Position numbers and translations under genes: made by a program. A stretch of DNA of 56,327 nucleotides. It comes from a virus (Duplodnaviria > Caudoviricetes). Each line of letters begins with the position of its first letter. The stretch's first letter is position 1. Location: IMG/VR virus record IMGVR_UViG_3300022665_000963, positions 1-56,327 of that record. One strand, 5' to 3'. Shown one piece after another: positions 39,143 to 54,358 of the stretch. Under the pieces are notes generated by a model. That model was not told the DNA's origin. It did no database searches and was given only the letters and a program-made list of their open reading frames with translations.

Positions 39143-39583
39143 TTAATCGTGGAGCCATCCTTCTAATTGGACGACCTCTATTCCCACGGTCTCTAGCATA
39201 ACGAGGGCCATGTCCATTTCCTGTACCCAATTACTATTCCTATCTATAGGAGGAGTAACCACTCGTTTTATTCCGTTCTGGATTAGGGCACCAGCGCACT
39301 GGGCGCAGGGAAATAGGGTCACATACATCGTCCAGCCGCGTACCTTACTGGGACAGTTGTCGATAGCATTCTGCTCGGCATGTATTATGATCCGGTTCTT
39401 GTCCTCCCTGCTCAGGTGCTCCAGCATGGTATCATCCAGTTTACTTGGAAGGCCATTGTACCCCCAGGACACGGAGCGTCGGTCCGGTGAGACGAGCAGG
39501 GCCCCGACCCTACGACGAGGGTCCTTGGACCATTCCTGCACGTCCTGGGCCATACTGAAGAACCGCTTATCCCACTTATTCAT
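39143..39583 (-). CDS. dCMP deaminase
   Basis: SKDP..RVGA, GYNG, HAEQNAI and PCAQC zinc motifs. Confidence 0.92.
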   Translation of the reverse strand: MNKWDKRFFSMAQDVQEWSKDPRRRVGALLVSPDRRSVSWGYNGLPSKLDDTMLEHLSREDKNRIIIHAEQNAIDNCPSKVRGWTMYVTLFPCAQCAGALIQNGIKRVVTPPIDRNSNWVQEMDMALVMLETVGIEVVQLEGWLHD

Positions 39584-40428
39584 AGTACGAGCTTCGGACA
39601 GGGGTTCCAGGAGTTATGGGCCACCCGGCCGGACAGTCTGGAGACTAGCGTCACATAGTCATCGGGCCTGTCGACTATCTCCTTGACGGACCAGCACGGT
39701 AGGTTGGGTTCCACGGCAGAAATCCAGGTGCTACGCTTCCCGATCAGGCAGTCCTCTATAGCCTGCTCATGGGGGTCATAGCTATGGGGATGTGCCAGGG
39801 TAAAGTGAAGCGTACCGGGGGTGCAGTTACAGCTGGCGGCCACCGCGTCGAGCGTCAGGGCATAGCCCATAACGTCGTAGGGCAGTCCCACGAAGACGTC
39901 GGAGGACCGTATGAACACTGAGCAGTGGATCTTACCCCCTATGCGGGAGAGGGTGAAGCCCACAGGGCAGGGGATATTCTTGGGCTGATTGGGCGCCCCC
40001 AGGCCATCTGTACGGGGGTCCCAGGCGGAGATGAACAACTGTCTGTTGGTTGGGTTGCCCGACAGCTCATATATAGCCATGGCCAGCTGATCCCTGCCGA
40101 AGTGCTTACGCCAGCGGTAACCGTAGGCCGTCTTGAGCTTGCCGTCCTCAACGAAGTCCTGCCATATCTTGTGAGCCTTCTTGAGTATCCAGTCAGGCGA
40201 CTGTGTGCCCATGAACTGCCAGGCGGTCTCGGCCGCAGCGACCCGGGGCCAGTAGCGCCTGTTTCCCGCGACTGGCAACCTACCGTTAGACAGGTCGAGC
40301 TTGAAGGAGTAAGCCCCCTCCAGGGCCCGGATATCGACGCCCGTCCGAGCATTCGTCTCGTCCCGGCCGTGGTGATACACCTCTGATAATAGACGCTTAT
40401 AGGCTTTAGCGAAGGTCTCGACTTTCAC
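39580..40428 (-). CDS. thymidylate synthase-family enzyme, probable dCMP (hydroxy)methylase
   Basis: AYGYRWR, catalytic PC, RSSDVFVGLPYD (Asp in place of ThyA Asn177), HSY; GTG start overlaps the upstream TGA. Confidence 0.85.
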   Translation of the reverse strand: MKVETFAKAYKRLLSEVYHHGRDETNARTGVDIRALEGAYSFKLDLSNGRLPVAGNRRYWPRVAAAETAWQFMGTQSPDWILKKAHKIWQDFVEDGKLKTAYGYRWRKHFGRDQLAMAIYELSGNPTNRQLFISAWDPRTDGLGAPNQPKNIPCPVGFTLSRIGGKIHCSVFIRSSDVFVGLPYDVMGYALTLDAVAASCNCTPGTLHFTLAHPHSYDPHEQAIEDCLIGKRSTWISAVEPNLPCWSVKEIVDRPDDYVTLVSRLSGRVAHNSWNPCPKLVL

Positions 40429-41462
40429 AGTAGATTCTCCATGAGTTGCTTGACGTTGAACTCCAGGTCCTCGAGCGTGCCGTTGTTGTCCAGCACGTAG
40501 TCCGCCATCCAGGGCTCGACAGTACAGGATTCCGAAGCCTCGCGAGGAACGAAGTCTGACCTGTCCACCCATATGATGGTGTCCACGATGCCCGCATTCT
40601 TGAGGGCGTTCAGTTCCGCCTTGCTTCGCAACCCACAGTAGACGTCGTGGTCCTTGAATATGGCGCGTCCCAGGGCCGTCGCGTCGGGCCGGTTGAGGGC
40701 CCTGATGGTATCGTACCACAGGGCCCGGTGGTTGTGGCGGTCCTGGAAGCACTCCGCGAAGTTGTTATACTTACCCTTCAACCCCGCCAGTTCTGGTGTG
40801 GTCTCGGCCTCTATGCCTGCAAAAATGACGTTCTCCGCGCAGAACAGACTGCTCGACGTGAAGCGTCTTCCGTACTGGTCTCGCAGCATCTCCGATACTG
40901 TATCCTTACCGTGCCTGCCGTGGCCGATCACCAGGATTTTACGGTCCCTCAGGGTCGTCCCTCGTAGTTCTTCAGGAATTATTATCCCGATATCAGTGAT
41001 AGGGACCTCCATGATGGGTATGGGATCGGATGCCGGTTCGGGTAACCGATGGGCGATTAGTATTTGTTCACGCGTGATTGTGAGGTAGGGCCCAAGGTCC
41101 GGGGGCGTCCAGCCCTCTGGCTTGACGGCGTCGAAGCCCAGTGAACCCGGGCGCTTGGATATGGCGCCCTGCCGCTTGGCCATGTTGGCACGGTGCACCT
41201 CCTCGAAGGCCGCGCCGGGTGTTATCCCCATCTCTATGAGGGTACCCATCGCCACGTATATCAGGTCCAGCAGACCGTCGGTCACCTGCTCCAGATTTAC
41301 ATTGCCTACACCTTTTTCGATTTCGTCCATTTCTTCACACAAATGGCGACGGCGAAAATAACATCTGTCGTGACTCAGTAGTGTTGGCTTGTCTGGGATG
41401 GGTAATCCGATTATGTCCCGGTTAAAGCGTAACACCATCTCATGCATTTTGTCTAAGGTCAT
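40425..41462 (-). CDS. MazG-like NTP pyrophosphohydrolase fused to a P-loop dNMP kinase
   Basis: EEMDE...DGLLDLIYV...EVHRANMAK followed by GHGRHGKDT...DNNGTLEDL. Confidence 0.85.
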   Translation of the reverse strand: MTLDKMHEMVLRFNRDIIGLPIPDKPTLLSHDRCYFRRRHLCEEMDEIEKGVGNVNLEQVTDGLLDLIYVAMGTLIEMGITPGAAFEEVHRANMAKRQGAISKRPGSLGFDAVKPEGWTPPDLGPYLTITREQILIAHRLPEPASDPIPIMEVPITDIGIIIPEELRGTTLRDRKILVIGHGRHGKDTVSEMLRDQYGRRFTSSSLFCAENVIFAGIEAETTPELAGLKGKYNNFAECFQDRHNHRALWYDTIRALNRPDATALGRAIFKDHDVYCGLRSKAELNALKNAGIVDTIIWVDRSDFVPREASESCTVEPWMADYVLDNNGTLEDLEFNVKQLMENLL

Positions 41463-41910
41463 CGCACTGTCTCCTATCAATATACCAATTCAGTTTGCCA
41501 TCATTGGGCTGTATGTCCAGCCGACCGTCCACGAATATCGCCCAACTATCTGCGGAGTATTTACCACACCCAGGCATCTTCAAGACGTCATCATAGCACT
41601 CTGGTTTTCCCTGTAACCAAGCACGGGCGAACTTTGGTAAAGTAATGGCCCTACGTCGCCACAGGCCCAGAGGCTTCAGTATTTCGTGCAGGGTCTCGGC
41701 CTCCGCCTCGGCCAGGGACTCGGGCGTTAGGTGCCTGGCCAGTATGTACTGGAAGGCCGGCTCGGCTTGACCTTCCCAGTTTGTAAGATTTACTAATTGA
41801 CACGCAACGAGCATCCAAAATGGATTATACTTAAGTCTTTCTTGAAACAATTGTCCTTTCTTCGGAACAGATAGCTTTGGCGAGTTTGATGACGTCTTCA
41901 ATCCAGCCAA
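41440..41910 (-). CDS. HhH-GPD DNA glycosylase, MBD4-like
   Basis: LKPLGL..RRA, HhH MPGCGKYSADSW.IF, QPNDGKLNWY (catalytic Asp position). Confidence 0.8.
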   Translation of the reverse strand: MAGLKTSSNSPKLSVPKKGQLFQERLKYNPFWMLVACQLVNLTNWEGQAEPAFQYILARHLTPESLAEAEAETLHEILKPLGLWRRRAITLPKFARAWLQGKPECYDDVLKMPGCGKYSADSWAIFVDGRLDIQPNDGKLNWYIDRRQCDDLRQNA

Positions 41911-42899: not shown

Positions 42900-42936
42900 A
42901 AAAAAAAAAAGGATCAAACTTTCATTCGATCCTTTC
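42900..42936 (-). terminator. intrinsic terminator
   Basis: AAAGGATC...GATCCTTT stem running into a long T-run on the minus strand. Confidence 0.75.
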
Positions 42937-45624: not shown

Positions 45625-46230
45625 TTATGAGAGCATCTTGGCTTGTGAGAGCATCTTGGCTATGAGACGCCTGTGACGCTTGAGCCATGCCCGCTCCATC
45701 AGCCAGAAGAATCGGCCTCTGATCGGCATGAACTTGACCCCCAGTGGTTCCATGTCGTCGGTACCCCACCTGTTGTCTGAGGGGTTCATCACGGTGGCCC
45801 TCTCGTCCACCAGGATGCGGGTGTCCGCCTCCTTGAGCCAGCCTGGGAAGGGCCATATGGTACCGAACCGCCGGGCTATGACCTGGTCTATCCCTTCCTC
45901 GATCACCTTGAACTGTGGCACCTTGTCCTTTACTGGCCGTATCATGTCACCGATGGCATACTCGGCATCATCATGATGCAGGGCTGTCAGGCCGTCCCGG
46001 GGCGTGGCCCACGGTTGCTCCATCACCCAGTCTGACATTATGCACGTGTGCTCGCAGACGGAGTACCAGCGCTTGGTGTGTCCGTTGTACCGGCACTGTC
46101 TCGCGAGGGAGTACGCGACGTCCTCGGGCTCTATCATGTCGACCGTGGGATTTTCGAAGAAGAACTTCTTGCCACTCACGATCTCGAACCAGCCGTCTTC
46201 GACTTGATATAAGGGAGTTTTCTTGGTCAT
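45625..46230 (-). CDS. HD-domain 5'-deoxynucleotidase (YfbR-like)
   Basis: CRYNGH, YSVCEH, HHDDAEY and GDMIRPVK motifs. Confidence 0.85.
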   Translation of the reverse strand: MTKKTPLYQVEDGWFEIVSGKKFFFENPTVDMIEPEDVAYSLARQCRYNGHTKRWYSVCEHTCIMSDWVMEQPWATPRDGLTALHHDDAEYAIGDMIRPVKDKVPQFKVIEEGIDQVIARRFGTIWPFPGWLKEADTRILVDERATVMNPSDNRWGTDDMEPLGVKFMPIRGRFFWLMERAWLKRHRRLIAKMLSQAKMLS

Positions 46231-53107: not shown

Positions 53108-53674
53108 TCAGTTCTCCATGACATCCCGGACGATCGCCCACATGTCATCGTCGGTCATCTGGAACCGGTCGAAGTCCACGTCTGGTTCCACTCCCTTCAG
53201 GCACAGCGACTTGGCACCGTTGCTTCCTTCATGGGTCTTAGTCATGAGCGTGGCCACCTTTCCGTCTCGGCCCGGCACGGTCGCGTGGAACGCTTGATCC
53301 AGCATGTGGTACGTCTCGCCGGCTTCCACCAGCTGACGGCTCACCTGGCCGACCCAGACCTCTGCCCTCGGTATCCACGGCCGGTTGCCGAACTCGCTCC
53401 GCTCACCCTCGTGCACGTATGCGACGTGAGTATTGGGACCGGGATCATCCCCGAATTCATACACCGCATAGACGTCATTTATCTGCATGCCCTTGAGCAC
53501 GGTGCTGCTGAAGCCGAAGCGGTGACTGTGTATGTCCGAGTGCAGGAAGCACTTCCTGCGGGGCAAGTCTGGGTGCCACACGTGCAGCCTCTGTTTGGCC
53601 CCCAGCTTCACCTGGAGGAAGCCGAGACCGTGCAGACTGATGGTCCTCTCGGTCTCCTTGAATACCTTAGTCAT
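53108..53674 (-). CDS. cupin-fold protein, paralogue A
   Basis: IHSHRFGFSSTVLKG...GETY......FH. Confidence 0.7.
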   Translation of the reverse strand: MTKVFKETERTISLHGLGFLQVKLGAKQRLHVWHPDLPRRKCFLHSDIHSHRFGFSSTVLKGMQINDVYAVYEFGDDPGPNTHVAYVHEGERSEFGNRPWIPRAEVWVGQVSRQLVEAGETYHMLDQAFHATVPGRDGKVATLMTKTHEGSNGAKSLCLKGVEPDVDFDRFQMTDDDMWAIVRDVMEN

Positions 53675-53856
53675 TGTGTTCTCCTTAAGGATCTATAAAT
53701 GGTTGAATTTGATACTGTATACCATTCCTTGATTACTTCTACCCGAGAGCCCCCGTCATATTCCTCACGGATCTCTAGGTCATGCTTGTTAGTCAGATAG
53801 TTACCGTTCCTAAAGTTTCCCGTTGCGGTCCTGTAGTTACTATTAATAAGCGTCAT
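53671..53856 (-). CDS. small hypothetical protein
   Basis: Fills the gap between the cupin paralogues with overlapping start and stop. Confidence 0.45.
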   Translation of the reverse strand: MTLINSNYRTATGNFRNGNYLTNKHDLEIREEYDGGSRVEVIKEWYTVSNSTIYRSLRRTQ

Positions 53857-54358
53857 GCTCACAGTCCCCCAGTACCTCACACACTATCGCCCACATGGTT
53901 CCCTTATTCATCTGATGCGAATCAAAGTCCTCCTCATATGGGGCCATCCCCACGGAACCCATCAGCCTCATCGCGTCGTGGCCCTTCGTCACCTTCGTCA
54001 CGAGGGCTGCTACGCGTCCGTCCCCGCAGGCCGTGGTCGAGTGGAACACCCGGGCCTTGAGCTGGTACGTCATGCCCGCGCCGATCGTCTGATGGCTGAC
54101 GTGGTTGAGCCAGAAATCTGACCTAGTATCCTTGATGGAGTTGTTTACCACGAAAACATCCTGTATCTGTACGCCCCGGAGTACCTGACTCTTGAAGCCA
54201 TAGGCATTATCGTGTATCTGGGATTCGCAGTAGCCTTTCGCTCTCGGTAGGTCCGGATGCCAAACGCACAGTTTTTGGTCACCGTCCAGCCTCACCTCGA
54301 TGAAACCAAGACGGTGCAGACTGATATCACCTTCGATGTTCTGGTTAAGTAGTGTCAT
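53843..54358 (-). CDS. cupin-fold protein, paralogue B
   Basis: IHDNAYGFKSQVLRG...GMTY......FH; clear similarity to 53108..53674. Confidence 0.7.
   Translation of the reverse strand: MTLLNQNIEGDISLHRLGFIEVRLDGDQKLCVWHPDLPRAKGYCESQIHDNAYGFKSQVLRGVQIQDVFVVNNSIKDTRSDFWLNHVSHQTIGAGMTYQLKARVFHSTTACGDGRVAALVTKVTKGHDAMRLMGSVGMAPYEEDFDSHQMNKGTMWAIVCEVLGDCEHDAY

What the first reader, a model, noticed from the sequence alone, without database searches (positions are those of the whole stretch)
39143..41910. Cytosine-C5 modification cassette with its own deamination-repair glycosylase
Seen: four overlapping, co-oriented genes encoding an HhH glycosylase, a MazG-like/dNMP-kinase fusion, a TS-family enzyme and a dCMP deaminase. 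The TS homologue reads RSSDVFVGLPYD where E. coli ThyA has RSCDVFLGLPFN; the Asp codon is at 39874-39876. Established: this Asn/Asp position sets substrate choice. T4 dCMP hydroxymethylase has Asp, and Asn-to-Asp mutants of TS methylate dCMP. Phage Xp12 is a precedent for full 5mC substitution. Inference: the enzyme makes 5-methyl- or 5-hydroxymethyl-dCMP, the kinase phosphorylates it, the MazG domain removes competing dCTP/dUTP, the deaminase supplies dTMP, and the glycosylase repairs the T:G (or hmU:G) mispairs that a fully modified genome would accumulate and that uracil-DNA glycosylase cannot remove. No glycosyltransferase was recognised in the window.
Basis: partly seen in the sequence, partly recalled or inferred. 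Interest (0 to 1): 0.9.

Follow-up and report, generated by a model that had tools for sequence, protein, structure and literature searches.

The report
Phage 5-methylcytosine cassette with MBD4-like glycosylase
This phage carries the same gene set that phage Xp12 uses to replace every cytosine in its DNA with 5-methylcytosine, plus a small repair-type enzyme resembling mammalian MBD4 that probably removes the thymines formed when those methylcytosines decay.

Summary
Four co-oriented, overlapping minus-strand genes lie at 39143-41910. The thymidylate-synthase (TS) homologue has Asp (GAC, 39874-39876) where true TS has Asn.

The window is an 89%-complete viral contig, distantly related to Xanthomonas phage Xp12. 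Xp12 has the same gene order. Its TS homologue (43% identical) is reported to make 5-methyl-dCMP. Active-site signatures match Xp12's enzyme, not T-even hydroxymethylases. The biosynthetic core (MazG, kinase, TS, deaminase) is therefore a new member of a known system, and 5mC is far likelier than 5hmC.

The deaminase probably supplies thymidylate by deaminating 5-methyl-dCTP, as described for Xp12-type phages.

The less-known part is the glycosylase. It is MBD4-like by sequence (E 2.4e-12) and by fold (TM about 0.8; top 16 PDB hits). It keeps MBD4's catalytic Asp and its thymine-reading Tyr and Gln.

Relatives are almost all viral. They sit beside Asp-type TS genes in Xp12-like phages (15 of 17 metagenomic loci, 8 of 8 isolates). 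They also occur with Asp-type TS genes in T4-like contigs and in one cyanophage.

My literature searches found no description of this link. T:G or hmU:G repair is inferred, not shown.

The parts
41440..41910 (-). MBD4-like HhH-GPD DNA glycosylase. The ORF is 156 aa; the likely start is TTG at 41901, giving 153 aa. Key codons: catalytic Asp137 (GAT 41500-41502), Tyr118 (TAC 41557-41559), Gln23 (CAA 41842-41844).
   Evidence: Pfam HhH-GPD 30.0 bits against 26.2. PDB phmmer: MBD4 2.4e-12, endonuclease III 8.4e-7. AF2 model pLDDT 94.2. Foldseek top 16 hits are all MBD4, TMq 0.75-0.81. Residue mapping. Codons read.
40425..41480 (-). Two-domain protein. The N-terminal domain (about residues 1-135) is a MazG/PRA-PH all-alpha NTP pyrophosphohydrolase. 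A disordered linker covers about residues 151-165 (numbers these 145-159 on the 345-aa form, which starts 6 residues later). The C-terminal domain (about 170-351) is a P-loop kinase with Walker A GHGRHGKDT (Lys192, 40905-40907). The start codon is uncertain: TTG 41480, or ATG at 41462, 41447 or 41438.
   Evidence: Pfam PRA-PH 40.1 bits. phrog_38514 1.4e-111 and phrog_139 dNMP kinase 2.3e-13. PDB DR2231 1.5e-10. The C-terminal domain has no significant PDB sequence hit (best E 0.03, an unrelated protein). AF2 pLDDT 89.9. Foldseek: DR2231 at 3e-6, and P-loop kinases including T4 dNMP kinase 1DEK at 2.9e-4. 53% identical to the RDJL Phi 1 'Cof hydrolase'.
39580..40428 (-). Thymidylate-synthase-family enzyme (282 aa, GTG start), predicted to be a dCMP C5-methyltransferase. 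Catalytic Cys154 (39967-39969); Asp177 = E. coli D169 equivalent (39898-39900).
   Evidence: Pfam 135.7 bits. PDB TS hits to 1.7e-24. 43% identical to the Xp12 enzyme. Clade placement in the quick tree. Signature residues.
39874..39876 (-). GAC codon for Asp185, the equivalent of Asn177 in E. coli ThyA (the substrate-choice position).
   Evidence: The meaning of the position comes from passages in PMC8670742 and PMC13326640.
39143..39583 (-). dCMP/dCTP-deaminase-family enzyme (146 aa) with an intact zinc site: His68 and Glu70 in HAE, Cys93 and Cys96 in PCxxC. Predicted to be a 5-methyl-dC nucleotide deaminase that supplies thymidylate.
   Evidence: Pfam 79.4 bits. phrog_174 8e-47. The best PDB hit is 7FH4, the PBCV-1 deaminase, at 5.9e-21; the preprint names 7FH4 as the closest structure to its 5mC-selective deaminase. 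Motifs located.

Best explanation
The four genes form one translationally coupled module of a lytic siphovirus-type phage. The module replaces cytosine with 5-methylcytosine in phage DNA before replication and then guards the result.

Biosynthesis (inferred by orthology to Xp12):
- The Asp-type TS homologue methylates dCMP to 5-methyl-dCMP, using methylene-tetrahydrofolate.
- The C-terminal P-loop kinase domain of the fusion protein phosphorylates 5-methyl-dCMP.
- The N-terminal MazG domain hydrolyses competing dCTP and/or dUTP, which keeps unmodified C and U out of the DNA and feeds dCMP back to the methylase.
- The deaminase converts part of the 5-methyl-dC nucleotide pool (most likely 5-methyl-dCTP) to thymidine nucleotides. 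This is needed because the record has no dUMP-specific TS and no ThyX.

Repair (inferred by homology and co-occurrence):
- The MBD4-like glycosylase flips out and excises thymine (also uracil or 5-hydroxymethyluracil) paired with guanine.
- Such mispairs arise when 5mC deaminates spontaneously in the virion. They may also arise from the phage's own deaminase acting on single-stranded replication intermediates.
- Host AP endonuclease, polymerase and ligase would complete the repair.
For: Core cassette:
- Xp12 and seven other isolates carry glycosylase, MazG, Asp-type TS, dCMP deaminase and DHFR in this order.
- Identities to Xp12 are 57% (glycosylase), 43% (TS) and 39% (deaminase).
- Xp12's TS homologue made 5mdC in an in-vivo assay. 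5mC-selective deaminases encoded next to such TS genes are proposed to make dTTP from 5mdCTP (preprint passages).
- The window TS keeps the catalytic Cys and the D169 equivalent. It has Asp at the N177 equivalent. It shares Xp12's K-N-[IV]-P-C-P stretch, whereas T2 gp42 and gp42-like enzymes have Asp three residues before the Cys. PMC13326640 passages tie an acidic residue at L143 to a hydroxymethyl product and D169N to a 5-hydroxy product.
- The record holds one TS-family gene, no ThyX and no C5 DNA methyltransferase.

Glycosylase is MBD4-like:
- The best PDB sequence hits are 15 MBD4 entries, at 2.4e-12 to 4.7e-11.
- The AF2 model (pLDDT 94.2) matches MBD4 structures at rmsd 1.3-2.4 A. The next folds (NTHL1, MutY, EndoIII) reach only TMq 0.52-0.66.
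- MBD4's catalytic Asp534, Tyr514, Asn441, Leu480 and Leu482 are kept in 40 of 40 family members. Gln423 is kept in 39 of 40 and Lys536 in 35 of 40.

Co-occurrence:
- 13 of 50,697 phage records hit the glycosylase, and all 13 are Xp12-like.
- 15 of 17 close IMG/VR loci have an Asp-type TS within 6 kb. In 14 of them the glycosylase sits directly upstream of MazG and TS.
- A distant branch (30-39% identity) lies 1.4 kb from gp42-like Asp-type TS genes in T4-like contigs, and next to a DNA alpha-glucosyltransferase in one locus.
- Cyanophage S-TIM54 has a homologue, an Asp-type TS and ThyX.
- One metagenomic protein fuses this domain to a C5 DNA methyltransferase.
- The preprint's deaminase also acts on 5mC in ssDNA, which would be a source of T:G.
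Against: - No biochemistry exists for this contig, and its DNA composition is unknown.
- The glycosylase is dispensable. Six related phages with the same Asp-type TS cassette lack it: RDJL Phi 1, Bosa, PaMx28, Elanor, RcRudolph and Tedan. On the TS tree its presence needs about 8 gains or losses.
- MBD4's arginine finger (Arg442) is Leu in the window and in 32 of 40 family members; Leu485 is Arg in 36 of 40.
- Two close loci show no TS. L011 is cut by the contig end. L017 sits on a 25.5-kb fragment with no TS.
- Five distant loci (L029-L032, L035) have no TS nearby. Two of their records show only a weak TS-like gene, below Pfam's cut-off.
- 0 of 80 phage loci with a C5 DNA methyltransferase carry the glycosylase. 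It is therefore not a general companion of 5mC.
- DHFR, present next to the deaminase in 13 of 14 named relatives, is absent from the window.
- The kinase assignment is weak. Pfam DNMK is below its cut-off, there is no PDB sequence hit, and the Foldseek TM to T4 gp1 is 0.44.
- The residue equivalent to L143 is ambiguous because of a 5-6-residue insertion.
Confidence: 0.65

Rival explanations
1. The cassette makes 5-hydroxymethylcytosine rather than 5mC, in the manner of T4. The TS homologue would be a dCMP hydroxymethylase, and the glycosylase would then guard against hmU:G.
For: Asp at the N177 equivalent is shared by methylases and hydroxymethylases. The window lacks the DHFR that reductive methylation would favour. 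MBD4 also excises 5hmU. The L143 equivalent cannot be fixed with certainty.
Against: The window TS is 43% identical to the Xp12 methylase but only 22% identical to T2 gp42, over 142 residues. It falls inside the Xp12/RDJL clade, apart from the gp42 branch (quick tree). It has Asn, as Xp12 does, where gp42-type enzymes have Asp three residues before the catalytic Cys. No glycosyltransferase was seen among the 33 different window ORFs scanned.
Confidence: 0.08
2. The glycosylase is not a T:G repair enzyme. It is either a general base-excision enzyme for oxidised or deaminated bases (endonuclease III-like, as GenBank records annotate it), or a weapon that excises a base from host or rival-phage DNA.
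For: Public annotations read 'endonuclease III' or 'ENDO3c domain', or 'hypothetical protein'. The AXL1 paper could not assign an active site. The Arg finger is replaced. The gene is patchy among relatives. Two family members are fused to a 5-hmdU DNA kinase domain, which shows that the fold is also used outside G-mispair repair.
Against: It lacks the Lys of bifunctional HhH lyases, having MBD4's Tyr at that place. It ends 19 residues after the catalytic Asp, leaving no room for the Fe-S loop of EndoIII or MutY (the Fe-S loop is recalled knowledge). The Gln and Tyr pair that reads the thymine edge and excludes cytosine in MBD4 is conserved. Matches to MBD4 are far better than to EndoIII, MutY or AlkA.
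Confidence: 0.17
3. This is an ordinary nucleotide-supply module. The TS homologue makes dTMP from dUMP, the deaminase supplies dUMP, and MazG is a house-cleaning enzyme, as most database records annotate these genes.
For: GenBank records of relatives call the genes thymidylate synthase, dCMP deaminase and nucleotide pyrophosphohydrolase, and the AXL1 paper describes them as the thymidylate pathway.
Against: Asp replaces the dUMP-selecting Asn in the window and in all 29 related TS genes examined. Xp12, whose DNA has 5mC in place of C, uses the orthologous enzyme to make 5mdCMP. AXL1 DNA resists restriction enzymes with G/C in their sites.
Confidence: 0.03

Closest known systems
Xanthomonas phage Xp12 (MT664984) 5-methylcytosine pathway and its Bradleyvirinae/Pamexvirus relatives (AXL1, FMYAK-P1, DoCa6, Donnerlittchen, PaMx28/74)
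   Same: The gene order glycosylase, MazG, Asp-type TS, dCMP deaminase is the same, on one strand and next to the helicase and DNA polymerase A genes. The TS is 43% identical and the glycosylase 57% identical. The active-site signature is the same.
   Different: The window belongs to a different sub-clade, with roseophage RDJL Phi 1, Ruegeria phage Tedan and IMG/VR loci L004 and L007. Its MazG protein carries a C-terminal P-loop kinase domain that Xp12's 257-aa protein does not match (query residues 18-135 only). It has no DHFR. At DNA level the region shares at most 44% coverage at about 69% identity with any phage record.
T-even phage hydroxymethylcytosine pathway (gp42 dCMP hydroxymethylase, gp1 dNMP kinase, dCTPase/dUTPase, cd deaminase)
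   Same: The logic is the same: an Asp-type TS-family enzyme modifies dCMP, a phage kinase phosphorylates the product, a pyrophosphatase removes dCTP, and a deaminase balances the pools. The T4 roles are recalled knowledge. The Asp of T2 gp42 aligns with the window's Asp.
   Different: Identity to T2 gp42 is only 22%. The signature is of the methyl type, not the hydroxymethyl type. The pyrophosphatase is MazG-type and is fused to the kinase. No glucosyltransferase was found.
Glycosylase domain of mammalian MBD4 (PDB 1NGN, 4EVV, 4DK9, 6VJW and others)
   Same: It is a single all-helical HhH-GPD domain of about 140 residues without an Fe-S cluster. Identity is 30-33%, TM 0.75-0.87 and rmsd 1.3-2.4 A. 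The catalytic Asp, the Tyr in place of the lyase Lys, the Gln that reads thymine O2/N3, the stacking Lys and the intercalating Leu are conserved.
   Different: There is no methyl-CpG-binding domain. The Arg finger is Leu, and Leu485 is Arg. It is encoded by phages inside a nucleotide-modification operon. Its substrate and any sequence-context preference are untested.
5mC-selective deaminase mSCD-B5 and its TS / PRA-PH neighbourhood (bioRxiv 10.1101/2024.12.05.627091)
   Same: It is a dCMP-deaminase-family gene next to an Asp-type TS and a PRA-PH gene. The closest solved structure is the same, 7FH4.
   Different: The preprint calls 5mC selectivity polyphyletic, so it cannot be read from family membership. 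The preprint's list of the top five co-localised domains does not include HhH-GPD.
Vsr / Dcm very-short-patch repair of E. coli (recalled, not tested here)
   Same: The pairing is functionally alike: a T:G-specific repair enzyme is genetically linked to the enzyme that creates 5mC.
   Different: Vsr is an endonuclease of an unrelated fold, and it is restricted to the Dcm site. Here the enzyme is a glycosylase, and every cytosine would be methylated.

Membership tests
Xp12-type deoxycytidylate C5-methyltransferase (thymidylate-synthase family, PF00303) | TS fold / Pfam Thymidylat_synt above its cut-off | tested here: met
   135.7 bits against 24.3. 121 PDB TS sequences at E<=0.001, best 1.7e-24.
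Xp12-type deoxycytidylate C5-methyltransferase (thymidylate-synthase family, PF00303) | Catalytic Cys (E. coli C146 equivalent) | tested here: met
   Cys154 in I-P-C-P, aligned with the Cys of all 12 sequences aligned.
Xp12-type deoxycytidylate C5-methyltransferase (thymidylate-synthase family, PF00303) | Asp at the Asn177-equivalent position (dCMP rather than dUMP) | tested here: met
   Asp185, GAC 39874-39876. The rule is stated in PMC8670742 and PMC13326640 (passages).
Xp12-type deoxycytidylate C5-methyltransferase (thymidylate-synthase family, PF00303) | D169 equivalent retained (D169N marks 5-hydroxy-dCMP synthases) | tested here: met
   Asp177 in R-S-S-D. The rule comes from PMC13326640 passages.
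Xp12-type deoxycytidylate C5-methyltransferase (thymidylate-synthase family, PF00303) | Non-acidic residue at the L143 equivalent (acidic correlates with a hydroxymethyl product) | tested here: inconclusive
   A 5-6-residue insertion makes the equivalent either Ala (HMMER) or Asn (three residues before the Cys). Neither is acidic, and both are shared with Xp12. gp42-type enzymes have Asp there.
Xp12-type deoxycytidylate C5-methyltransferase (thymidylate-synthase family, PF00303) | Orthology and synteny with the experimentally characterised Xp12 enzyme | tested here: met
   43% identity over 277 residues. Same operon order. Inside the Xp12/RDJL group and apart from the gp42 branch, SH-aLRT 99, in a quick tree.
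Xp12-type deoxycytidylate C5-methyltransferase (thymidylate-synthase family, PF00303) | Product is 5-methyl-dCMP | not testable with these tools
   Needs an enzyme assay or LC-MS.
MBD4-type glycosylase-domain clade of the HhH-GPD superfamily | HhH-GPD domain, with closest sequence and structural relatives being MBD4 glycosylase domains | tested here: met
   Pfam 30.0 bits against 26.2. 15 MBD4 entries at 2.4e-12 to 4.7e-11, against EndoIII at 8.4e-7. Foldseek ranks 1-16 are all MBD4.
MBD4-type glycosylase-domain clade of the HhH-GPD superfamily | Catalytic Asp (mouse D534), Tyr in place of the lyase Lys (Y514), and Gln reading thymine O2/N3 (Q423) | tested here: met
   Asp137, Tyr118 and Gln23 of the 156-aa ORF. 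Asp and Tyr are kept in 40 of 40 family members, Gln in 39 of 40.
MBD4-type glycosylase-domain clade of the HhH-GPD superfamily | Arginine finger filling the gap left by the flipped base (R442) | tested here: not met
   Leu42 in the window. Across the family: Leu 32, Arg 5, Gln 2, Ile 1 of 40.
MBD4-type glycosylase-domain clade of the HhH-GPD superfamily | N-terminal methyl-CpG-binding domain (defines the MBD4 protein, not the glycosylase domain) | tested here: not met
   The protein is 153-156 aa and is a single domain. I therefore file it as MBD4-like, not as MBD4.
MBD4-type glycosylase-domain clade of the HhH-GPD superfamily | Excision of T, U or 5hmU opposite G | not testable with these tools
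   Needs an oligonucleotide cleavage assay.
MazG / all-alpha NTP pyrophosphohydrolase (PRA-PH, DR2231-like) | PRA-PH domain above its cut-off and a DR2231-like fold | tested here: met
   40.1 bits against 21.3. DR2231 at 1.5e-10. Foldseek 3.2e-6, TMt 0.63-0.76.
MazG / all-alpha NTP pyrophosphohydrolase (PRA-PH, DR2231-like) | Substrate is dCTP and/or dUTP | not testable with these tools
   Only by analogy to the DR2231 complexes with dUMP/dUMPNPP, seen as entry titles.
T4 gp1-like dNMP kinase (PF21448) | Pfam DNMK above its cut-off | tested here: not met
   17 bits against 27.1, with only the P-loop matched. No significant PDB sequence hit (best E 0.03, an unrelated protein).
T4 gp1-like dNMP kinase (PF21448) | P-loop NMP-kinase fold with Walker A | tested here: met
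   GHGRHGKDT at residues 186-194. Foldseek hits to dephospho-CoA kinase, an adenylate-kinase-related protein and T4 dNMP kinase 1DEK (2.9e-4, TMt 0.44). phrog_139 at 2.3e-13.
dCMP/dCTP deaminase (PF00383), 5mC-selective subgroup | Deaminase domain with a zinc site (HAE ... PCxxC) | tested here: met
   79.4 bits against 25. His68, Glu70, Cys93 and Cys96. 7FH4 at 5.9e-21.
dCMP/dCTP deaminase (PF00383), 5mC-selective subgroup | Preference for 5-methyl-dC nucleotides | not testable with these tools
   The preprint calls the trait polyphyletic and gives no diagnostic residues in the passages I saw.

The most novel reading that the evidence does not exclude
The MBD4-like glycosylase is a dedicated phage enzyme for repairing deaminated modified cytosines. 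It would have been recruited repeatedly by unrelated phage lineages that replace all cytosine with 5mC or 5hmC (Xp12-like siphoviruses, T4-like myoviruses, a TIM5-like cyanophage). In those phages it would offset both spontaneous decay and collateral 5mC-to-T editing of replicating ssDNA by the phage's own 5-methyl-dCTP deaminase. The eukaryotic MBD4 glycosylase domain belongs to the same, otherwise almost purely viral, clade, and may have been exchanged between such viruses and eukaryotes.
Probability: 0.25. Interest if true: 0.75.

Novelty: new variant of a known kind. Interest (0 to 1): 0.6.

Why it matters
The biosynthetic core adds one more distant member to the Xp12-type 5mC phages. It shows that the pathway reaches into the RDJL/roseophage-like clade, with a MazG-kinase fusion and without DHFR.

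The glycosylase is the more useful point. A genome in which every C is 5mC or 5hmC turns each deamination into a T:G or hmU:G mispair that uracil-DNA glycosylase cannot see. A phage-borne MBD4-type enzyme inside the modification operon would be the first described built-in repair function for a fully substituted phage genome.

This is directly testable with oligonucleotide assays. It could yield small, context-independent T:G and hmU:G glycosylases for methylation sequencing. It also bears on the origin of the eukaryotic MBD4 glycosylase domain, since the nearest prokaryote-side relatives found here are viral.

Tried and rejected
Tried, with no result or a negative result:
- DHFR, C5 DNA methyltransferase and ThyX searches of the record found nothing. 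tblastn with the Xp12 and RDJL DHFR proteins also found nothing. The record is only 89% complete, so absence is not proven.
- The promoter and terminator scan gave no more sites than shuffled sequence: 5 against 6.9 promoter-like, 8 against 8.4 terminator-like.
- A PDB sequence search with the kinase domain found nothing significant (best E 0.03, to an unrelated protein).
- The divergent TS-like gene of records G004 and G005 reaches only 18-20 bits. Its Asp assignment rests on ungapped reading by eye. I do not count it as support.
- The search for related loci with the glycosylase-methyltransferase fusion P0259 returned 80 loci that match the methyltransferase part only. None holds the glycosylase. 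The fusion's own context is therefore unknown.
- The careful tree did not finish, so only the quick tree is reported.
- The S-TIM54 paper holds none of my six terms on DNA modification.

Considered and rejected:
- Ordinary dTMP synthesis (Asp-type TS; Xp12 orthology).
- A 5-hydroxy-dCMP synthase (D169 is kept).
- A bifunctional EndoIII-type lyase (Tyr, not Lys; no room for an Fe-S loop).

Not in print, as far as these searches go. Searches found no paper linking an MBD4-like or T:G glycosylase to Xp12-type or other cytosine-substituted phages. Term look-ups inside 10.1101/2024.12.05.627091, PMC8670742 and PMC11946847 also found none. PMC9206674 describes AXL1 gp65 only as an ENDO3c-domain protein of unclear active site. 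Supplementary Fig. 2A of the preprint (gene neighbourhoods of Xp12, the B5 contig and PaMx74) may show this gene, and I could not see it.

Full report
WHAT IS THERE

The window is a single IMG/VR virus record of 56,327 bp, estimated to be 89% complete. On the minus strand between 39143 and 41910 lie four co-oriented genes.

Pfam and PHROGs identify them as follows:
- An HhH-GPD glycosylase: 30.0 bits against a cut-off of 26.2.
- A PRA-PH/MazG domain (40.1 bits against 21.3) fused to a C-terminal region. That region has only a weak DNMK P-loop hit (17 bits against 27.1), but it matches phrog_139 (dNMP kinase, 2.3e-13). The whole protein matches phrog_38514 (1.4e-111).
- A thymidylate-synthase (TS) family protein: 135.7 bits against 24.3.
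- A dCMP deaminase: 79.4 bits against 25.

The longest TS ORF (390 aa) is over-extended. The family match starts at ORF residue 116. A GTG at 40428, with a GGAG 8 nt upstream, overlaps the kinase stop as GTGA and gives a 282-aa protein.

The other junctions also look translationally coupled. TS and deaminase overlap as ATGA. The glycosylase probably starts at TTG 41901, overlapping the upstream stop as TTGA. The glycosylase stop overlaps the fusion gene by 8-41 nt, or lies 1 nt from it, depending on which start codon is used.

THE ASP

Its Asp is residue 185, codon GAC at 39874-39876. HMMER alignments to three solved TS structures put it on the Asn of their G-V-P-F-N-I stretch. A MAFFT alignment puts it on the Asn of a canonical phage ThyA and on the Asp of T2 gp42.

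Passages in PMC8670742 and PMC13326640 state that this position (N177 in E. coli numbering) sets dUMP against dCMP preference. I did not see E. coli ThyA itself aligned.

WHOSE CASSETTE IT IS

At DNA level the region finds 49 of 50,697 phage records, none covering more than 44% of it, at about 67-71% identity. These are Roseobacter, Rhodobacter, Ruegeria, Xanthomonas, Stenotrophomonas, Pseudomonas, Janthinobacterium and Variovorax phages, and they include Xp12.

Xp12 has the same order: a 160-aa 'hypothetical protein', then MazG hydrolase, TS, dCMP deaminase and DHFR. Identities to the window are 57% for the hypothetical protein against the glycosylase, 43% for the TS (with Asp) and 39% for the deaminase. 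Seven further isolates show the identical layout, all with Asp: MET13-T1, Ep029, FMYAK-P1, YB23, DoCa6, Donnerlittchen and AXL1.

According to passages of bioRxiv 10.1101/2024.12.05.627091:
- Xp12 DNA has 5mC in place of all C.
- Xp12's TS homologue produced 5mdC in an in-vivo assay, as did five of seven metagenomic TS homologues encoded next to deaminases.
- PaMx74 also fully replaces C with 5mC.
- A deaminase encoded beside such a TS (mSCD-B5) deaminates 5mdCTP (99% in 30 min) and 5hmdCTP, but hardly dCTP. It shows no detectable activity on dCMP or 5mdCMP. It also acts on 5mC in ssDNA.
- The authors propose that such deaminases make dTTP from 5mdCTP, removing the need for a dUMP-specific TS.

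The window fits this picture. It has one TS-family gene, no ThyX and no C5 DNA methyltransferase. Its deaminase has an intact zinc site, and its best solved relative is 7FH4, the same entry named for mSCD-B5.

METHYL OR HYDROXYMETHYL

The window TS is 59% identical to RDJL Phi 1's, 68-71% to IMG/VR loci L004 and L007, and 43% to Xp12's. It is only 22% identical to T2 gp42, over 142 residues.

In a quick maximum-likelihood tree of 33 rows (the careful search did not finish), the window sits in a starred clade with L004, L007, RDJL Phi 1, Tedan and L006. That clade lies inside the Xp12-like group. The gp42 sequences form a separate branch with SH-aLRT 99.

PMC13326640 passages give three product rules. 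An acidic residue at L143 goes with a hydroxymethyl product. A bulky hydrophobic residue there goes with a methyl product. D169N goes with 5-hydroxy-dCMP.

The window keeps D169 (Asp177). Three residues before the catalytic Cys it has Asn, as do Xp12, PaMx28, RDJL Phi 1 and others. T2 gp42 and the gp42-like genes have Asp there. A 5-6-residue insertion makes the exact L143 equivalent ambiguous: HMMER picks an Ala. Both candidates are non-acidic and shared with Xp12.

I therefore read the enzyme as a dCMP methyltransferase, with about 8% left for hydroxymethylation. One point against is the lack of DHFR, which 13 of the 14 named relatives examined have. Tedan's locus also lacks it.

THE FUSION PROTEIN

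The N-terminal domain is closest to DR2231, a MazG-like pyrophosphohydrolase solved with dUMP and dUMPNPP (1.5e-10; Foldseek 3.2e-6).

An AF2 model from a 40-sequence alignment has pLDDT 89.9 and a disordered linker at residues 145-159 of the 345-aa form. It gives a C-terminal P-loop kinase fold. Its Foldseek hits are dephospho-CoA kinases, an adenylate-kinase-related protein and T4 dNMP kinase 1DEK (2.9e-4, TMt 0.44). The Walker A motif is present.

The domain is fused to PRA-PH in most of the 120 listed homologues, out of 323 found. A kinase role is therefore plausible, but the substrate is not shown. Xp12's MazG protein matches only the N-terminal part.

THE GLYCOSYLASE

PDB sequence search returns 15 MBD4 glycosylase-domain entries (2.4e-12 to 4.7e-11), ahead of endonuclease III (8.4e-7 and weaker).

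An AF2 model from 40 homologues (pLDDT 94.2, pTM 0.88) matches MBD4 structures in Foldseek ranks 1-16: TMq 0.75-0.81, TMt 0.82-0.87, rmsd 1.3-2.4 A, 30-33% identity. NTHL1, MutY, Mig and EndoIII follow at TMq 0.52-0.66.

I mapped the residues named in PMC3458566 (passages) through the alignment and counted them in the 40-sequence alignment:

| Mouse MBD4 residue | Role | Window (156-aa ORF) | Across 40 family members |
|---|---|---|---|
| Asp534 | catalytic | Asp137 | 40 of 40 |
| Tyr514 | replaces the lyase Lys; Y514F nearly kills MBD4 | Tyr118 | 40 of 40 |
| Gln423 | reads thymine O2 and N3-H | Gln23 | 39 of 40 |
| Lys536 | stacks on the flipped base | Lys139 | 35 of 40 |
| Asn441, Leu480, Leu482 | DNA contacts | kept | 40 of 40 each |
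| Arg442 | finger filling the gap | Leu42 | Leu 32, Arg 5, Gln 2, Ile 1 |
| Leu485 | minor-groove contact | Arg86 | Arg 36 of 40 |

The paper stresses that the hydrogen-bond pattern read by Gln423 and the Val422 backbone is opposite to that of cytosine. A conserved pocket therefore argues for T, U or 5hmU and against C or 5mC as the excised base.

The protein ends 19 residues after the catalytic Asp. That leaves no room for an Fe-S loop (the Fe-S loop of EndoIII and MutY is recalled knowledge).

DISTRIBUTION OF THE GLYCOSYLASE

In cultured phages. tblastn finds the glycosylase in 13 of 50,697 records. These are 8 phages, all Xp12-like, and all carry the Asp-type TS.

In IMG/VR. A profile-guided scan returned 32 loci.
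- 17 are close relatives (48-67% identity). Of these, 15 hold an Asp-type TS within 6 kb. In 14 the glycosylase lies directly upstream of MazG and TS; in L012 it lies 3 kb downstream of the cassette.
- L011 is cut by the contig end.
- L017, on a 25.5-kb fragment, has no TS.

Among the 15 distant loci (30-39% identity):
- L026, L028, L033 and L034 lie beside a gp23-type capsid gene and 1.4 kb upstream of a TS homologue. That homologue is 31-38% identical to T-even-type and Aeromonas-phage dCMP hydroxymethylases. It has Asp at both the N177 equivalent and three residues before the Cys. L026's copy is cut before the Asp.
- L027 has a DNA alpha-glucosyltransferase next door.
- L021-L025 are short contigs that say nothing.
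- L029-L032 and L035 show no convincing TS nearby.

In a cyanophage. S-TIM54 has a homologue (36% identical to L033's), together with ThyX and a 280-aa Asp-type TS.

In cellular genomes. Only one 1.6-kb MAG contig, out of 185,579 species' genomes, matched. That scan uses strict peptide patterns. The contig also holds a TS fragment.

In wider protein collections. The ESM Atlas clusters nearest to a homologue are 90-97% viral. A profile search of 1.84 billion representative proteins gives 6,096 hits at E<=0.001, 1,859 at 1e-10 and 61 at 1e-30.

Of ten long hits that I picked and scanned:
- One is fused to a C5 DNA methyltransferase.
- Two are fused to the helical domain of 5-hmdU DNA kinase.
- One cluster (2.5e-24) includes a haptophyte protein that its source names MBD4.

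RESULTS AGAINST THE REPAIR READING

- Six relatives with the same Asp-type cassette lack the glycosylase.
- On the TS tree its presence needs about 8 changes, which is no better than shuffled labels. It is an accessory gene, gained and lost often.
- None of 80 phage loci with a C5 DNA methyltransferase carries it. It is not a general companion of DNA methylation.
- The Arg finger is missing.

HOW IT MOST LIKELY WORKS

Shown by sequence, structure prediction and comparison: the four gene identities, the Asp, the orthology to Xp12's cassette, and the MBD4-like fold and pocket.

Inferred from published work on relatives: dCMP is methylated to 5mdCMP, and thymidylate is supplied by deamination of 5-methyl-dC nucleotides.

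Inferred only: the kinase and MazG substrates, and the excision of T (or U, or 5hmU) opposite G.

Two sources of T:G are plausible:
- Spontaneous deamination of 5mC, in a genome where every C would be 5mC, during extracellular life.
- Off-target action of the phage's own deaminase on ssDNA, as reported for mSCD-B5.

A modest benefit of this kind would fit the patchy distribution.

WHAT IS NEW

The TS, deaminase and PRA-PH neighbourhood, and the Xp12 pathway, are in print.

The glycosylase is annotated as 'hypothetical protein', 'endonuclease III' or 'ENDO3c domain-containing protein'. The AXL1 paper calls it a protein found only in Xp12, with no clear active site.

Five literature searches and term look-ups in three papers found no link to MBD4 or to deamination repair (16, 18, 36). 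Supplements were closed.

I rate the core as a new member of a known kind and the whole module as a new variant, with interest 0.6.

No earlier findings were used.

Noticed in passing
P0298 and P0344 (metagenomic proteins), alignment A4: An MBD4-like glycosylase domain is fused N-terminally to the helical domain of 5-hmdU DNA kinase (PF18723, 8e-43 and 3e-50). That kinase belongs to thymidine-hypermodification pathways. Both proteins keep the catalytic Asp. P0344 has Phe where MBD4 has the essential Tyr. The fold may serve there as a module that flips out 5hmU.
   Followed up: partly
P0259 (metagenomic protein, 408 aa): An MBD4-like domain (residues 2-124) is fused to a C5 cytosine DNA methyltransferase (PF00145, 1.9e-36). 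Its genomic context could not be fetched. 80 phage loci with related methyltransferases hold no such glycosylase.
   Followed up: partly
L040 and L042 (Cyanophage S-TIM54, OP053362): This cultured cyanophage has ThyX, a 280-aa Asp-type TS homologue and an MBD4-like 'hypothetical protein'. This suggests an unreported cytosine modification. The one paper that mentions the phage holds none of my modification terms.
   Followed up: partly
window 45625-46230 (-): A 201-aa HD-type protein matches phrog_318, 'deoxyribonucleoside 5' monophosphate phosphatase' (2.3e-47), and weakly matches Pfam YfbR-like. It lies between the SNF2-type helicase and the DNA polymerase A gene. It may be a further nucleotide-pool enzyme.
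   Followed up: no
window, whole record; L057 (Ruegeria phage Tedan): The window has no DHFR gene, and none was found in the Tedan locus. 13 of the 14 named relatives examined carry DHFR right after the deaminase. In the window the deaminase is followed by a 98-aa ORF with no family match and by a phrog_2165 protein.
   Followed up: partly
L053 (Xanthomonas phage Bosa) against L052 (AXL1): The AXL1 paper reports Bosa as 91% identical to AXL1 over 97% of the genome. Yet Bosa lacks the glycosylase and the small gene before it. About 300 bp of unannotated DNA lies where those genes sit in AXL1. This looks like a recent loss or gain.
   Followed up: no
L036-L038 (IMG/VR records G004 and G005): A 219-kb phage record with an MBD4-like gene has two TS-related genes. 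One is a canonical Asn-type ThyA carrying a large insertion. The other is a divergent 258-aa TS-like gene (18-20 bits, below Pfam's cut-off) next to methyltransferase-like ORFs. Its function is unknown.
   Followed up: partly
L039 (genome contigs, 1,619-bp contig of a MAG): The only hit to the glycosylase among 185,579 species' genomes is a 1.6-kb contig that also encodes a TS fragment 51% identical to the window's. It is probably a phage fragment binned into a bacterial MAG.
   Followed up: no
P0035 and P0170: Two close homologues, one of the glycosylase and one of the MazG-kinase, carry NCBI names from Brucella abortus assemblies, on contigs of about 60 kb. This hints that phages of this clade infect alphaproteobacteria. 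I propose no bench work with that organism.
   Followed up: no
window 53108-53674 (-) and 53843-54358 (-): Two neighbouring genes both match phrog_4784, of unknown function (2.6e-63 and 1.1e-33). They look like a tandem duplication.
   Followed up: no
window 42907-42936 (-): A 13-pair stem followed by a T-run is the only strong terminator-like site upstream of the cassette on its strand. Overall, terminator-like sites are no more frequent than in shuffled sequence.
   Followed up: no
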